Below are positions 10,744 to 24,641 of a stretch of 26,193 bases of DNA, piece after piece. Origin of the DNA: a virus. Lineage: Duplodnaviria > Heunggongvirae > Uroviricota > Caudoviricetes. The position numbers and the translations under genes were made by a program. Numbering within the stretch: position 1 is the stretch's first letter; the number at the start of each line of letters is the position of its first letter. The DNA lies in the IMG/VR virus record IMGVR_UViG_2636415673_000003; one strand, given 5' to 3'. The notes below the pieces were generated by a model. It had not been told where the DNA came from, did not search any database, and worked only from the letters and a program-made list of their open reading frames with translations.

Positions 10744-11021
10744 TTCTCAATCTCTCGATGGCGCAGTGCAGCAGATGCCAGTTGTTCAGGCTGACGAATA
10801 AAGTATAAATAAACTGGCTATGGTGTAAAGCTCCACATAACATGAACAAACACTACATATCAAATAGCTGATACAAGGATAGAAATACAACACTTATTAT
10901 TAAAAACGATTAGATAAATTACATTTTAATGTTATGAAAAAGTTCTTTTTTATCATAACATTTCAACAAAAGCATTACAGATGCACATCCCGTCATCATC
11001 AATTATTTAAGGTGGTTAAAC

Positions 11022-11108
11022 ATGGAAAATAACAACTATGCACATCTCGCTCCTTTTTTATCCGTAATCCTTTTCGCTGGCTGTTTTATATGGGCATTAT
11101 TTTTATAA
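11022..11108 (+). CDS. Small hydrophobic peptide (28 aa), possible type I toxin-like or small membrane protein
   Basis: ATG at 11022 with AAGGTGG 6 nt upstream. MENNNYAHLAPFLSVILFAGCFIWALFL has a polar N-terminus and a single TM-like C-terminus. Too short for the ORF track. Confidence 0.35.
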   Translation: MENNNYAHLAPFLSVILFAGCFIWALFL

Positions 11109-11181
11109 AGTAGCCGCATGATTAGTTTCTGGAATCATGTTTCCCACTCAAATCATTAACATTTGATAAGATATATCTAAA

Positions 11182-11243
11182 AGGATGCCTTTACATTATT
11201 TGATGCGTATATGATTTATTTATATGCACAGTAAAGGCATCCT
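11182..11243. repeat. 13-bp perfect inverted repeat (AGGATGCCTTTAC ... GTAAAGGCATCCT) separated by 36 nt
   Basis: Read directly from the sequence. On the minus strand it is followed by TTTT, so it may act as a terminator or a protein-binding palindrome. Confidence 0.5.
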
Positions 11244-11555
11244 GGAAATAATCAAGATTAATGATATATTGCTTATCTCATCCCCCACTGTCTTTCACCC
11301 GGAAAACATTTATCGTTAAAAATATATCATAAGTAATTAAATTGAAATTTCAGAACACAACTAATGCACACAATAAGATTCAGTAACAGTAATCTATGCG
11401 GACTATATCGAGATTTTTTAGTTAAACTTTAATAAGTTATTCCTAACACACAGAATGCACAAACTAAAAGTAAAACAAATAGTTATACGAAAAACAACCA
11501 TATTGATTCTATCTTCTCCTCTAATCAACATATCAATTATGTGTTTCATAACAGC

Positions 11556-11595
11556 TTGACATAACCCTCAAAAAGGTGCATTTATAATGCATGTT
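11556..11595 (+). promoter_or_regulatory. Promoter of the yeaR-like gene with an NsrR-type operator overlapping the -10
   Basis: TTGACA (11556-11561), TATAAT (11584-11589), and AAGGTGCATTT-A-TAATGCATGTT (11573-11595), which matches the NsrR inverted repeat (AAnATGCATTT-n-AAATGCATnTT) as I recall it. The 21-nt spacer is atypical. Confidence 0.5.
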
Positions 11596-11610
11596 TTATG
11601 GGAGGTGGTT

Positions 11611-11952
11611 ATGACACACAAGAGAATTCCTAAAGACTGGGTAATCAAACGCTCAACTCCGTTCTTCACAAAAGAGAACGTACCTTCAGCGTTATTAACA
11701 CATCATAATACAGCAGCAGGTGTTTTTGGACAGTTATGCGTGATGGAAGGTACTGTAACATATTATGGTTTTGCTGATGAGAATGCTACTGAACCGGAGA
11801 TAAAAGTAGTCATTAATGCTGGCGCTTTTGCAACAAGCCCACCACAATACTGGCACCGTGTTGAACTAAGCGATGATGCTCAGTTTAATATTAACTTTTG
11901 GGTAGCTCCAGACTTCTCAGGCGAAAAAGTCTATACCGCAAAAAAAGAATAG
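11611..11952 (+). CDS. YeaR-like protein (DUF1971 / TehB N-terminal-domain-like)
   Basis: GGAGG 5 nt upstream of ATG 11611. RSTPFF...CVMEGTVTYYGFADE...EPE...NAGAFATSPPQYWH...FNINFWVAPD resembles E. coli YeaR as recalled. Confidence 0.75.
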   Translation: MTHKRIPKDWVIKRSTPFFTKENVPSALLTHHNTAAGVFGQLCVMEGTVTYYGFADENATEPEIKVVINAGAFATSPPQYWHRVELSDDAQFNINFWVAPDFSGEKVYTAKKE

Positions 11953-12034
11953 CCACGCTATAAATATCTTATTAACTAGTCCCGGCGTGGTTCTTTCCCC
12001 GCTGGGTCTTTTACTCAGATTAGTAGTCTACGAA

Positions 12035-12160
12035 TCAGAGCCTCCGTCTGCCAGTTCGGATTCGTACCTCGCAGAGGTCTTTCCTCGTTACCAGTGCCGT
12101 CACTATGACGGTTAAACAGATGACGATCAGGGCGATTAACATCGCCTTTTGCTGCTTCAT
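12035..12160 (-). CDS. hok: Hok-family type I toxin with truncated/divergent C-terminus (41 aa)
   Basis: MKQQKAMLIALIVICLTVIVTALVTRKDLCEVRIRTG matches the HokD/RelF N-terminus as recalled, then ends RRRL-stop instead of the usual ~15 further residues. A short upstream ORF ends in ATGA overlapping the hok start (mok-like coupling). Confidence 0.75.
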   Translation of the reverse strand: MKQQKAMLIALIVICLTVIVTALVTRKDLCEVRIRTGRRRL

Positions 12161-12330
12161 AGCCTGCTTCTCCTTGACCTTTCGGTCCGTAAGAGGCTAA
12201 TCTCTATGTGTCGCATAGATATGGCCTCAGATTAATGTTAAACGTCTTGCAGGACGCGTAATGTTAACTGGGGCTTTTCTCTATCTACCTTTGGTGTTCA
12301 TGCCCGAGGCAGATAGCCTCAAGCACCCAC
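12161..12330. promoter_or_regulatory. hok mRNA leader / mok-like frame / expected Sok antisense RNA region
   Basis: By analogy with hok/sok loci, Sok is encoded antisense to the hok leader; the exact promoter and terminator were not resolved by eye. Confidence 0.35.
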
Positions 12331-12682
12331 AGCAATTCTAACTATCCAATACATCACTGCCAACACTTTAAACTCTTACCCTTTAAAACAAGAACAAAAT
12401 TCAACCAATCAGCATTGGGCGTATACTCATATCCTAGAGAAAACAACTCTTTCTGTACTATTTATATCCATATGATTTATAAGCATTTGCCACTTGCCAT
12501 AGCCGCACAATGACAGTTTGCCATTTGATGTCAATAGATAAAAATGATCGTTTTCAATGAGTTACATACTTGCAAGGCGTTGCACATCAGGCCCGATTAC
12601 GTCAGTATCAAAAGATTACAGATGGTGCATTACTGCCACTTCGCCTTAATGTTCCAGAACTCTCCAACTTGAGGAATTTTCA

Positions 12683-13456
12683 ATGACATCCTTTCAATTA
12701 TCTTTGATTTCTCGTGAAATTGACGGCGAAATAATACATTTACGTGCCAAAGATGGTTACATAAACGCCACATCAATGTGTAGAACTGCGGGCAAACTGC
12801 TCTCTGATTACACTAGACTCAAAACTACTCAAGAGTTTTTTGACGAATTATCACGCGATATGGGAATTCCCATATCGGAGTTAATTCAATCATTTAAAGG
12901 TGGAAGACCTGAAAACCAAGGGACATGGGTGCATCCTGACATCGCTATTAATCTAGCGCAGTGGCTATCGCCCAAATTTGCAGTCCAGGTTTCAAGATGG
13001 GTTCGTGAATGGATGTCAGGGGAAAGAACTACAGCAGAAATGCCTGTACATTTAAAACGGTACATGGTTAATCGTAGTAGAATTCCTCACACGCACTTTT
13101 CTATTCTTAATGAACTGACATTCAACTTGGTTGCACCTCTTGAACAAGCAGGGTACACACTCCCAGAAAAAATGGTTCCTGACATTTCACAAGGAAGAGT
13201 ATTTTCACAATGGTTAAGAGATAATAGAAACGTAGAACCCAAAACATTCCCTACCTATGACCATGAATATCCCGATGGTCGCGTATACCCTGCAAGGCTG
13301 TACCCAAATGAATATTTAGCAGATTTCAAAGAACATTTTAACAATATTTGGTTGCCGCAATATGCCCCGAAATACTTCGCTGACCGGGACAAAAAGGCTC
13401 TCGCCTTGATTGAAAAAATTATGCTACCTAACCTCGATGGCAATGAACAGTTCTAA
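12683..13456 (+). CDS. KilA-N domain protein (N-terminal KilA-N/APSES-like DNA-binding domain; C-terminal ~130 aa unknown)
   Basis: IDGEIIHLRAKDGYINATSMCRTAGK...WVHPDIAINLAQWLSPKFAVQVSRWV is a KilA-N signature. AT-rich gene with its own RBS (GAGG) and a downstream terminator. Confidence 0.8.
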   Translation: MTSFQLSLISREIDGEIIHLRAKDGYINATSMCRTAGKLLSDYTRLKTTQEFFDELSRDMGIPISELIQSFKGGRPENQGTWVHPDIAINLAQWLSPKFAVQVSRWVREWMSGERTTAEMPVHLKRYMVNRSRIPHTHFSILNELTFNLVAPLEQAGYTLPEKMVPDISQGRVFSQWLRDNRNVEPKTFPTYDHEYPDGRVYPARLYPNEYLADFKEHFNNIWLPQYAPKYFADRDKKALALIEKIMLPNLDGNEQF

Positions 13457-13461
13457 ATGAT

Positions 13462-13495
13462 TAGCCAGCCCCATAAGGGCTGGTTATTTAGTATT
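13462..13495 (+). terminator. Rho-independent terminator after the KilA-N gene
   Basis: Stem CCAGCCC / GGGCTGG with loop CATAA, followed by TTATTTAGTATT. Confidence 0.6.
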
Positions 13496-13496
13496 A

Positions 13497-13580
13497 TCAA
13501 CCCCAGCGGCAAATCGAATACACCACCAGCGCCACCGCCATCGCAATTCCTACCGTTGTGAATGCTTCAGGCCAGGTCAT
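13497..13580 (-). CDS. Small hydrophobic peptide (27 aa), translationally coupled to the upstream gene
   Basis: ATG overlaps the TGA of the 167-aa gene (ATGA), with GGAGG 9 nt upstream. MTWPEAFTTVGIAMAVALVVYSICRWG is a single-TM-like peptide. Confidence 0.35.
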   Translation of the reverse strand: MTWPEAFTTVGIAMAVALVVYSICRWG

Positions 13581-14080
13581 CGTAAAACATCCTCCACGCT
13601 TATAAGTCCGCTTCGCTCCAGGTAGTCCATCACTTTATCCGGCAATTTGCAGCCCGGTTTCGGTTTCTTCAGTTGACTAACCAATTGTTTAACCAGCATT
13701 GTCAATTCGCGAACTTGTTTCCCGGGCTCCCCTTTGCCCTGAAGCAGGGCAGCGCGGCAAGCGTTCCATCCCTCAGCATATGTTTCAGTTACACCATCGA
13801 GATGGCATGTAAGCAAATCCATTTCTTCCGGCACTACGGGCGCTGGAAAAACGGCATAGGGTGGCGTCCATTTTGGCGCTTTATCTCCAGCCGAACGCTG
13901 ATACCAGTCATCCGGTTTGTATTCATAAAAATCACCAACTGGCTCTGCTTCCAGCGATGCCAGAGCAATTTTGAATAATTCGCCCTCTACCCGTGCCATC
14001 CCTGAATTGGGGTGGCATTTCTCAATCGCTATTTTTAATTTAGCTTCTTCGATTAATTGCTTTTTGGTTAATTCAGTCAT
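13577..14080 (-). CDS. Hypothetical phage protein (167 aa), nin-like region
   Basis: Long ORF in the early-right operon orientation; no recognisable motifs. Confidence 0.55.
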   Translation of the reverse strand: MTELTKKQLIEEAKLKIAIEKCHPNSGMARVEGELFKIALASLEAEPVGDFYEYKPDDWYQRSAGDKAPKWTPPYAVFPAPVVPEEMDLLTCHLDGVTETYAEGWNACRAALLQGKGEPGKQVRELTMLVKQLVSQLKKPKPGCKLPDKVMDYLERSGLISVEDVLR

Positions 14081-24265: not shown

Positions 24266-24460
24266 ATGAGATATGACAATGTTAAACCATGTCCATTTTG
24301 TGGTTGTCCATCAGTAACGGTGAAAGTCATTTCAGGATATTACCGAGCGAAGTGTAACGGATGCGAATCCCGAACCGGTTATGGTGGAAGTGAAAAAGAA
24401 GCACTCGAAAGATGGAATAAACGAACCACTGGAAATAATAACGGAGGTGTTCATGTATAA
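24266..24460 (+). CDS. ralR: RalR (Lar) restriction-alleviation protein / type I toxin DNase
   Basis: MRYDNVKPCPFCGCPSVTVKVISGYYRAKCNGCESRTGYGGSEKEALERWNKR... (64 aa). Confidence 0.9.
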   Translation: MRYDNVKPCPFCGCPSVTVKVISGYYRAKCNGCESRTGYGGSEKEALERWNKRTTGNNNGGVHV

Positions 24461-24641
24461 AATTACCGCCACTATTGAAAAGGAAGGTGGCACTCCTACT
24501 AACTGGACAAGATATTCAAAATCTAAACTAACGAAATCAGAATGCGAAAAAATGCTCTCAGGTAAAAAAGAAGCAGGCGTTTCCAGAGAGCAGAAAGTAA
24601 AACTGATAAATTTTAATTGCGAGAAACTTCAGTCCTCGTGA
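24453..24641 (+). CDS. ydaC: YdaC (DUF1187-type) small protein
   Basis: MYKITATIEKEGGTPTNWTRYSKSKLTKSECEKMLSGKKEAG...; ACGGAGGTG upstream; overlaps the ralR stop. Confidence 0.8.
   Translation: MYKITATIEKEGGTPTNWTRYSKSKLTKSECEKMLSGKKEAGVSREQKVKLINFNCEKLQSS

What the first reader, a model, noticed from the sequence alone, without database searches (positions are those of the whole stretch)
12683..13456. Autonomous KilA-N domain gene with an uncharacterised C-terminal domain
The gene has a KilA-N DNA-binding N-terminus and an unrecognised ~130-aa C-terminal half. It has its own RBS and a clean terminator, sitting in a low-GC island in the nin-like region, which is typical of acquired cargo. 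KilA-N proteins are poorly characterised and could act in host takeover or phage exclusion.
Basis: partly seen in the sequence, partly recalled or inferred. Interest (0 to 1): 0.5.

Follow-up and report, generated by a model that had tools for sequence, protein, structure and literature searches.

The report
BstA-type phage-defence gene in prophage
The gene is real, but its "unknown" C-terminal half is the catalogued BstA_C domain of the prophage abortive-infection protein BstA, so this is most likely an untested, differently placed relative of a known anti-phage defence gene.

Summary
Window 12683-13456 (+) is an intact 257-aa ORF with a GAGGA ribosome-binding site, a strong terminator hairpin and about 41% GC. 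It lies in a low-GC island of a Rac-like E. coli prophage.

The N-terminus is a canonical KilA-N domain (Pfam E 4e-27). The C-terminal half is not unrecognised: it is Pfam PF26567 BstA_C. The whole protein matches PHROG 6287 "BstA abortive infection system" (E 2.7e-89).

Only the C-domain aligns with experimentally tested BstA proteins (23-32% identity; hhalign probability 98.5%). The N-domains do not align. The gene is not next to the prophage repressor. It travels in a ~1.55-kb module with hok/sok and its own upstream region. An 86%-identical paralogue does sit directly after cI.

No aba-like self-immunity repeat was detectable. The C-domain model is confident (pLDDT 94) but has no convincing structural relative.

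Best reading: a single-gene BstA-family abortive-infection defence (confidence about 0.65), inferred by homology only. It is a new member of a known kind and of modest interest.

The parts
12683..13456 (+). CDS, 257 aa, KilA-N + BstA_C protein. RefSeq WP_000200358, annotated only as 'KilA-N domain-containing protein'.
   Evidence: ORF. RefSeq annotation. Full-length match to PHROG 6287 'BstA abortive infection system', E 2.7e-89.
12722..13018 (+). KilA-N DNA-binding domain (residues 14-112)
   Evidence: Pfam PF04383, E 4.3e-27. Foldseek of the full model hits APSES/Mbp1/Bqt4 DNA-binding domains at E 2e-3 to 4e-2.
13037..13432 (+). BstA_C domain (residues ~119-250). Family-wide invariant residues are R126, D167, G171, Y207 and Y231. 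Nearly invariant are F139, G157, S169, H194 and P208.
   Evidence: PADLOC BstA model matches residues 119-238, E 3.2e-21. BLASTP to BstA-BTP1 gives 32% identity over 125-251, E 3e-16. hhalign of the C-domains gives Prob 98.5%, E 1.8e-15. PF26567 BstA_C is the precomputed label on homologues.
12671..12675 (+). Shine-Dalgarno GAGGA, 7 nt upstream of the ATG
   Evidence: Read directly from the sequence.
13462..13496 (+). Intrinsic terminator: 10-bp GC-rich stem, 5-nt loop, T-run
   Evidence: Terminator scan. RNA fold -18.7 kcal/mol, z -4.4.
12518..12545 (+). Weak sigma-70-like promoter candidate (TTGCCA-16-AAAAAT, 9/12). Its -35 element overlaps the third TTGCCA repeat.
   Evidence: This is a consensus match only and is not above the shuffle expectation.
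12486..12524 (+). A role as an operator or aba-like site is untested.
   Evidence: Conserved apart from one substitution in an independent prophage.
12035..12330 (-). hok toxin ORF (12035-12160) and sok antisense/leader region. This is the left part of the module that travels with the gene.
   Evidence: ORF. RefSeq labels it 'Hok/Gef family protein'. Rfam RF01794 sok at 12158-12328, 101.5 bits.
12040..13580 (.). A ~1.55-kb mobile module: hok/sok, ~520-bp spacer (hok stop to ATG), the KilA-N/BstA_C gene, the terminator, and a 27-aa ORF on the minus strand. It is shared at about 97-98% identity with an otherwise different lambdoid prophage.
   Evidence: Pairwise alignment with L086. Homology begins inside the 3' end of hok and ends at the ATG of the small ORF.

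Best explanation
The gene encodes a two-domain member of the BstA family of prophage-borne abortive-infection (Abi) defence proteins.

By analogy with BstA of Salmonella phage BTP1 and its Klebsiella and E. coli homologues (PMC8585504), the inferred mechanism is:
- The protein is made in the lysogen.
- When a heterologous phage starts lytic replication, the N-terminal DNA-binding domain (here a canonical KilA-N) brings the protein to replicating phage DNA.
- The BstA_C domain then blocks phage DNA replication.
- The infected cell dies or lyses without releasing progeny, which protects the clonal population and the resident prophage.

Shown here: domain architecture, homology of the C-domain, prophage location, autonomy of the cassette, and strong purifying conservation.

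Inferred only: expression in the lysogen, DNA binding, replication block and the Abi phenotype.

Here the gene is not co-transcribed with the repressor. It sits as a self-contained moron next to a hok/sok toxin-antitoxin locus, forming a small low-GC accessory island between the replication genes and the late-gene regulator.
For: 1. Family matches. PHROG 6287 'BstA abortive infection system, replication inhibitor' matches the full length (E 2.7e-89). The same PHROG is the only hit of BstA-BTP1 itself (E 2.1e-150). It is also hit separately by the N-half (E 9.8e-30) and the C-half (E 1.6e-54) of the window protein.
2. C-domain homology to a tested BstA.
   - BLASTP to BstA-BTP1: 32% identity, E 3e-16.
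   - hhalign: Prob 98.0-98.5%.
   - PADLOC BstA HMM: E 3.2e-21.
   - All close homologues carry PF26567 BstA_C plus PF04383, while BstA-BTP1 relatives carry PF26567.
3. Prophage location and the canonical position of close relatives. The 86%-identical protein of phage PhiR5_2, its allele in 22 E. coli genomes and a 78% homologue all lie immediately downstream of a LexA/cI-type repressor. That is the hallmark BstA position.
4. Single-gene autonomy. The family occurs in P2-like prophages, in integron-cassette-like arrays beside RVT_1 and HEPN genes, next to transposases and next to AbiTii and restriction-enzyme genes.
5. The gene is intact and under strong constraint. Proteins across many phyla are 52-86% identical. 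Five C-domain residues are invariant even against the BTP1 subfamily.
Against: - No experiment exists for this protein or for any canonical-KilA-N/BstA_C protein in the literature searched.
- Similarity to the three tested BstA proteins is confined to the C-domain. It is low: 32% to BTP1 and 23% to the BstA-Ec-type protein. Those proteins are 42% identical to each other over their full length.
- The N-domains are not alignable by profile-profile comparison (Prob 0.2%).
- The gene is not next to the repressor here. Only 3 of 76 species-level loci have an S24/HTH_3 repressor as upstream neighbour.
- No aba-like direct repeat straddles the start codon here (longest is 7 nt, p = 0.21) or across 80 related loci (5% reach p <= 0.05).
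Confidence: 0.65

Rival explanations
1. It is a regulator of the phage's own life cycle: an anti-repressor or transcription factor of the KilA-N/Bro-N/Rha/Ant network. KilA-N would bind phage DNA. The C-domain would bind a repressor or another regulator, with no role in excluding other phages.
For: - The BstA_C domain is found behind interchangeable N-terminal modules typical of anti-repressor-type proteins. These are Bro-N (P0293, P0323), Phage_pRha (P0350) and KilA-N.
- The KilA-N half also matches PHROG 129 'transcriptional regulator' (E 9e-25).
- The gene lies in the early region, where such regulators occur.
Against: - The C-domain is not ANT/KilAC-like. Pfam gives no match, and viral antirepressor C-domain models appear only at Foldseek E of about 1.
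- It is homologous to the domain of proteins with a demonstrated Abi phenotype (PMC8585504).
- The family also occurs away from phages, next to aceK in Stenotrophomonas, next to transposases and in integron-like arrays. A phage-specific regulator would have no target there.
Confidence: 0.15
2. It is a host-killing or host-takeover protein like P1 KilA. It would be expressed during lytic growth to shut down a host function such as replication, for the benefit of the carrier phage.
For: - KilA-N was named after the lethal P1 KilA protein (my own knowledge of Iyer et al. 2002, as cited in PMC8585504).
- One metagenomic relative fuses the whole KilA-N/BstA_C unit to a PriCT_2 + DUF3987 primase/helicase-type protein (P0251). 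This hints at a link with replication machinery.
- The very high conservation across phyla would fit a conserved host target.
Against: - The gene points against the early rightward operon. It has its own upstream region and terminator, which is typical of lysogen-expressed morons rather than lytic-cycle genes.
- Close paralogues sit in the cI operon, which is transcribed in the lysogen. A constitutively host-lethal protein could not be kept there.
Confidence: 0.1
3. It is inert cargo: a decaying or silent gene with no current function in this prophage.
For: - Only a weak promoter-like match lies upstream (9/12, not above shuffle expectation).
- The neighbourhood includes an unannotated AT-rich stretch.
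Against: - The ORF is full length relative to the family.
- It is 100% identical in most of about 116 genomes, and all family-invariant residues are kept.
- A second, unrelated prophage carries the same module with 10 substitutions in 774 nt and no disruption.
Confidence: 0.05

Closest known systems
BstA of Salmonella phage BTP1 (ST313-td, STMMW_03531) and its tested homologues BstA-Kp and BstA-Ec (Owen et al. 2021, PMC8585504)
   Same: - Two-domain, ~250-300-aa prophage protein with an N-terminal DNA-binding-type domain and a homologous BstA_C domain (32% identity; hhalign Prob 98.5%).
- Same PHROG (6287).
- A single gene with its own RBS and a Rho-independent terminator.
- Close paralogues occupy the same cI-N slot.
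   Different: - The N-domain is a canonical Pfam KilA-N that does not align with the 'KilA-N-like' N-domain of BTP1-type BstA. BstA-BTP1 itself gets no Pfam-A hit in the local library.
- The protein is 40-50 aa shorter.
- Here it is not downstream of the repressor. It lies in the nin-like region on the opposite strand, linked to hok/sok.
- No CCCGCC-type terminal repeats or any aba-like repeat were found.
- It has not been tested experimentally.
KilA-N/BstA_C protein of Escherichia phage PhiR5_2 (XSB41358) and WP_000191544 in 22 E. coli genomes
   Same: 86% amino-acid identity, same architecture and same length class.
   Different: - That allele lies 31 bp after cI and has no upstream region of its own.
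- DNA homology with the window begins at the ATG and ends at the stop codon.
- The first 60 nt of the CDS are more diverged (about 65% identity) than the gene as a whole (77%).
Lambda RexAB and other Abi morons of the lambdoid immunity region
   Same: Prophage-encoded defence that is presumably expressed in the lysogen and protects against heterologous phages by aborting infection.
   Different: No sequence or structural relation. RexAB has two components and acts on the membrane. This gene is a single soluble DNA-binding-type protein located elsewhere in the prophage.
KilA-N / Bro-N / Rha / Ant anti-repressor-type phage proteins
   Same: The modular design is shared: an N-terminal DNA-binding module plus a swappable C-terminal module. 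BstA_C is found behind KilA-N, Bro-N and Rha modules.
   Different: The C-domain is BstA_C, not ANT/KilAC. No significant sequence or fold match to antirepressor C-domains was found.

Membership tests
BstA abortive-infection family (Owen et al. 2021) | Homologous C-terminal domain (BstA_C, Pfam PF26567) | tested here: met
   BLASTP 32% identity, E 3e-16. hhalign Prob 98.5%, E 1.8e-15. PADLOC BstA HMM E 3.2e-21. The C-half alone hits PHROG 6287 at E 1.6e-54. PF26567 is the precomputed label on homologues.
BstA abortive-infection family (Owen et al. 2021) | N-terminal KilA-N(-like) putative DNA-binding domain homologous to that of BstA-BTP1 | tested here: inconclusive
   A canonical KilA-N is present (E 4e-27), and the N-half alone matches PHROG 6287 positions 6-121 (E 9.8e-30). 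However, direct profile-profile comparison with the BTP1-type N-domain finds nothing (Prob 0.2%), and the PADLOC BstA model does not cover the N-half.
BstA abortive-infection family (Owen et al. 2021) | Encoded by a prophage | tested here: met
   The window is a Rac-like prophage at ttcA with int/xis, recET, racR, replication, lysis, terminase and head genes.
BstA abortive-infection family (Owen et al. 2021) | Located directly downstream of, and presumably co-transcribed with, the prophage repressor. This is frequent in the family but not universal. | tested here: not met
   In the window the gene is about 4.5 kb from racR. It lies on the other side of the replication genes, next to hok/sok. 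The feature is met by the 86% and 78% paralogues but by only 3 of 76 species-level loci.
BstA abortive-infection family (Owen et al. 2021) | Cognate anti-BstA (aba) DNA element overlapping the 5' end of the gene, giving the prophage self-immunity | tested here: inconclusive
   No terminal direct repeat like the BTP1 CCCGCC pair was found. The longest start-straddling repeat is TTTCAAT (7 nt, p 0.21). Across 80 loci there is no excess over shuffles. The sequence rules for aba elements other than BTP1's are unknown, so absence cannot be concluded. A functional test is needed.
BstA abortive-infection family (Owen et al. 2021) | Abortive-infection phenotype with a block of phage DNA replication | not testable with these tools
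   Requires phage challenge, survival and DNA-replication assays.
Bro/Ant-type anti-repressors (KilA-N or Bro-N plus ANT/KilAC C-domain) | C-terminal ANT / KilAC-type domain | tested here: not met
   Pfam finds only KilA-N. Foldseek of the C-domain model against viral models gives antirepressor C-domains at E 0.9-2 only.

The most novel reading that the evidence does not exclude
Canonical-KilA-N/BstA_C proteins may form a distinct sub-type of BstA defence that works as a fully self-contained cassette. It would be carried by prophage morons, integron-like arrays and IS-flanked islands across many phyla.

Under this reading:
- The swappable N-terminal module (KilA-N, Bro-N, Rha or BTP1-type) sets which DNA is recognised.
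- That module therefore also sets what can act as the self-immunity site.
- In this E. coli module, self-control would come from the private upstream region with its TTGCCA repeats, not from a BTP1-type aba.
- The gene would be deliberately paired with hok/sok as a two-layer abortive-infection unit.
Probability: 0.2. Interest if true: 0.5.

Novelty: new member of a known kind. Interest (0 to 1): 0.3.

Why it matters
BstA is one of the few prophage defences with a described DNA-based self-immunity element, and its mechanism and trigger are still unknown.

This locus offers a natural comparison. The effector-side domain is the same. The DNA-binding module is different and well defined. The genomic position is different, outside the repressor operon. 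A nearly identical paralogue sits in the canonical position.

That comparison could show which domain sets target and aba specificity, and whether repressor-linked expression is required.

In practical terms, about 2.6% of complete E. coli genomes (139 of 5426) carry this gene labelled only 'KilA-N domain-containing protein'. NCBIfam has no BstA model. A likely defence gene is therefore under-annotated, which matters for phage-therapy host-range prediction.

Tried and rejected
- Anti-repressor C-domain: rejected. No Pfam ANT/KilAC match, and BFVD Foldseek gives E >= 0.2.
- Structural neighbour for the C-domain: none found.
  - Foldseek against PDB with the full model returned only APSES-type hits to the N-domain.
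  - A profile search of PDB sequences gave E >= 0.3.
  - The AFDB50 library was not available.
- Homology of the N-domain to the BTP1-type N-domain by hhalign: none.
- aba-like repeats: no signal in the window or across 80 loci. The BTP1 aba and the window's 5' region share only RBS-like bases (by eye).
- TTTGCCA and TTTCAAT motifs: not enriched window-wide.
- 'Phage' records with the identical protein (vB_EcoS-673R7 and 666R9) turned out to be PHASTER-predicted prophages, not isolated virions. They do not show that the prophage is inducible.
- NCBIfam: no family for this protein or for tested BstA types.
- Literature searches for BstA_C, PF26567 or KilA-N defence work beyond Owen 2021 found nothing relevant.

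Full report
**1. The observation**

The ORF at 12683-13456 (+) is real: ATG start, 257 aa.
- A GAGGA Shine-Dalgarno lies 7 nt upstream of the ATG.
- A GC-rich hairpin with a T-run lies 6 nt after the stop codon (13462-13486). It folds at -18.7 kcal/mol, z = -4.4 against shuffles.
- GC content is 0.39-0.42 over the gene, within a low-GC island from about 10750 to 13450. The replication genes to the right are 0.49-0.54.
- Pfam finds a KilA-N domain at residues 14-112 (E 4.3e-27).
The heptamer is not over-represented in the window (10 found, 7.1 expected).

**2. Where the window comes from**

The stretch is 100% identical to E. coli chromosomes. The annotated record shows a complete Rac-like prophage at ttcA, with these genes:
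- intR, xisR, ralR, recT/recE, kilR, sieB, racR and ydaS/T
- replication genes ydaU/ydaV, then DUF1627, DUF977 and a 167-aa ORF
- the KilA-N gene on the opposite strand
- hok/sok and a TehB-N-like ORF
- DUF1367/DUF1364/DUF1133 (Q-like), lysis genes, trkG, terminase and head genes

Rfam confirms sok at 12158-12328 (-). 'Nin-like region' is therefore a fair description.

**3. What the C-terminal half is**

It is not unrecognised.
- PHROGs places the whole protein in phrog_6287, 'BstA abortive infection system, replication inhibitor' (E 2.7e-89, residues 1-254).
- The PADLOC BstA model matches residues 119-238 (E 3.2e-21).
- All close homologues in the large protein collection carry precomputed PF26567 plus PF04383. 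Relatives of BstA from Salmonella phage BTP1 carry PF26567 alone. Gene tables name PF26567 'BstA_C'.
- Against BstA-BTP1 (the ST313-td gene, L002), BLASTP aligns residues 125-251 at 32% identity (E 3e-16).
- Profile-profile comparison of the two sub-families gives Prob 98.0-98.5% for the C-domains. It gives nothing for the N-domains (Prob 0.2%).
- BstA-BTP1 gets no Pfam-A hit in the local library. This agrees with the paper's statement that its KilA-N similarity is only seen by remote-homology methods (PMC8585504).
- PHROG 6287 is hit by BstA-BTP1 (E 2.1e-150) and, separately, by the N-half (E 9.8e-30) and the C-half (E 1.6e-54) of the window protein. That resource therefore treats both as one family.
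- A BstA-Ec-type protein (L093, 42% identical to BstA-BTP1) is only 23% identical to the window protein, over the C-domain alone.

The window protein is thus a distant, domain-level relative of all three BstA proteins that have been tested.

**4. What is known about BstA (PMC8585504)**

- BstA is constitutively made in lysogens.
- It forms foci that colocalise with replicating DNA of an infecting phage.
- It prevents phage DNA replication and causes abortive infection.
- The carrier prophage escapes through aba, a 63-bp DNA element. It spans 29 bp upstream and the first 34 bp of bstA, carries terminal CCCGCC repeats, acts as DNA, and is specific to its cognate BstA.
- Many homologues lie directly downstream of the prophage repressor.
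- The biochemical activity and the trigger are unknown.

**5. Structure**

- AlphaFold2 with a 67-sequence alignment gives a confident two-domain model (mean pLDDT 94.0).
- A C-domain-only model reaches pLDDT 94.4 and pTM 0.87. It is mainly helical with one beta-hairpin.
- Foldseek against the PDB finds only APSES/KilA-N-type DNA-binding domains (Mbp1, Bqt4, PCG2), aligned to about the first 100-118 residues.
- BFVD gives E >= 0.2, with antirepressor C-domains at E of about 1.
- A PDB sequence-profile search gives E >= 0.3. AFDB50 was unavailable.
- Residues invariant across 36 diverse C-domains, including BTP1-type ones, are R126, D167, G171, Y207 and Y231. F139, G157, S169, H194 and P208 are nearly invariant. 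These are obvious mutagenesis targets.

**6. Modularity**

BstA_C occurs behind several N-terminal modules:
- canonical KilA-N
- Bro-N (P0293, P0323)
- Phage_pRha (P0350)
- the BTP1-type domain

One 1230-aa metagenomic protein fuses PriCT_2 + DUF3987 (primase/helicase type) to a complete KilA-N/BstA_C unit (P0251). This is the domain-shuffling pattern typical of phage DNA-binding regulators. It suggests that BstA_C is the constant functional part and the N-module the specificity part. This is inference.

**7. Genomic context**

- In E. coli, 139 of 5426 complete genomes carry the gene at >= 80% coverage.
- About 117 of these have the window allele (>= 98.7% identity), always with the same upstream region.
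- 22 genomes have an allele about 77% identical at the DNA level. It sits 31 bp after a LexA-family cI, in the slot between cI and N (L085; phage PhiR5_2).
- Between the two alleles, DNA homology starts at the ATG and stops at the stop codon.
- The window allele also occurs in a different lambdoid prophage (L086). There the shared segment runs from the 3' end of hok to the ATG of a 27-aa minus-strand ORF, equivalent to window ~12040-13580. The unit that moves is therefore hok/sok, ~520 bp of spacer, the gene, the terminator and the small ORF.
- Across 76 species-level loci, only 3 have an S24/HTH_3 repressor as the upstream neighbour. Others lie next to aceK (Stenotrophomonas), IS1595/IS1/rve transposases, AbiTii or a restriction-enzyme domain.
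- Individual look-ups show a cI-adjacent copy, a copy in a P2-like prophage beside DUF4145, and a Vibrio copy in an integron-cassette-like array with RVT_1 and HEPN genes.
- The protein is 52-86% identical across Proteobacteria, Verrucomicrobiota, Bacteroidota, Planctomycetota, Spirochaetia, Gracilibacteria, Nitrospirota and Armatimonadota. That is unusually well conserved for a mobile gene.

**8. Search for an aba-like element**

- No CCCGCC-type terminal repeat is present.
- The longest direct repeat straddling the start codon is TTTCAAT (7 nt, p = 0.21 against dinucleotide shuffles).
- Over 80 related loci, such repeats are no longer than chance (mean 5.78 nt against 5.86; 5% of loci reach p <= 0.05).
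- The first 60 nt of the CDS are more diverged between the two E. coli alleles (about 65% identity) than the whole gene (77%). This is compatible with allele-specific 5' elements but proves nothing.
- The presence of an aba remains open.

**9. Interpretation**

The best-supported reading is a single-gene BstA-family abortive-infection defence (confidence about 0.65). In this reading, the KilA-N domain targets DNA and BstA_C blocks replication of an invading phage. Everything beyond architecture, homology and context is inferred from the tested family members.

Rivals:
- A life-cycle regulator or anti-repressor (0.15). The company BstA_C keeps with Bro-N and Rha modules favours it. The non-phage contexts and the lack of an ANT-type domain disfavour it.
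- A KilA-like host-takeover protein (0.10).
- Inert cargo (0.05).

**10. Novelty and verdict**

The family, its domain (Pfam PF26567) and its PHROG already exist. Its 'phage exclusion' guess is right in direction.

Mildly new points are:
- The canonical-KilA-N sub-type has not been tested.
- In this prophage it has left the repressor operon and travels with hok/sok.
- RefSeq labels it only as 'KilA-N domain-containing protein', because NCBIfam has no BstA model.

Verdict: new member of a known kind; interest 0.3.

Noticed in passing
window 10744-11610: An 867-bp stretch at 29-31% GC with no ORF longer than 43 aa lying wholly inside it. No feature is annotated under the match in any of the 12 E. 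coli records sampled, out of 463 genomes that hold at least 80% of it. It lies between the DUF1367 gene and the TehB-N-like ORF.
   Followed up: partly
window 13497-13580 (-): A 27-aa hydrophobic ORF (MTWPEAFTTVGIAMAVALVVYSICRWG). Its ATG overlaps the stop codon of the 167-aa ORF 13577-14080 (ATGA). It forms the right edge of the ~1.55-kb module shared with an unrelated prophage, and it converges on the same terminator as the KilA-N gene.
   Followed up: partly
window 12035-12330 (-): A hok toxin ORF plus an Rfam sok match (101.5 bits). This type I toxin-antitoxin locus is physically linked to the KilA-N/BstA_C gene in two different prophage backgrounds.
   Followed up: partly
window 11587-11952 (+): A 121-aa ORF that matches only the N-terminal ~100 residues of TehB (NCBIfam PRK12335, E 1e-12, far below the cut-off). 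RefSeq calls it 'TehB family protein'. It lies in the same low-GC island.
   Followed up: no
window 24459-24637 (-): RalA antitoxin sRNA (Rfam RF02694, 225 bits) of the ralR/RalA type I toxin-antitoxin system of Rac.
   Followed up: no
P0251 (metagenomic protein, 1230 aa): PriCT_2 + DUF3987 (primase/helicase-type) fused to a complete KilA-N + BstA_C unit at residues 976-1219. This is a possible hint that BstA_C acts on or with replication machinery.
   Followed up: partly
P0293, P0323, P0350: The BstA_C domain (49-58% identical to the window's) sits behind Bro-N or Phage_pRha N-terminal modules instead of KilA-N.
   Followed up: partly
L090 649-1395 (Vibrio contig) and L091: A 60%-identical homologue lies in an integron-cassette-like array, with regularly spaced 30-aa pseudo-ORFs between genes. 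A reverse transcriptase (RVT_1) and, in the second Vibrio contig (L091), a HEPN gene are nearby.
   Followed up: no
L005-L084 (species genomes): KilA-N/BstA_C proteins 52-60% identical to the E. coli protein occur in MAGs of Verrucomicrobiota, Bacteroidota, Planctomycetota, Spirochaetia, Gracilibacteria, Nitrospirota and Armatimonadota. In six Stenotrophomonas genomes the gene sits next to aceK.
   Followed up: partly
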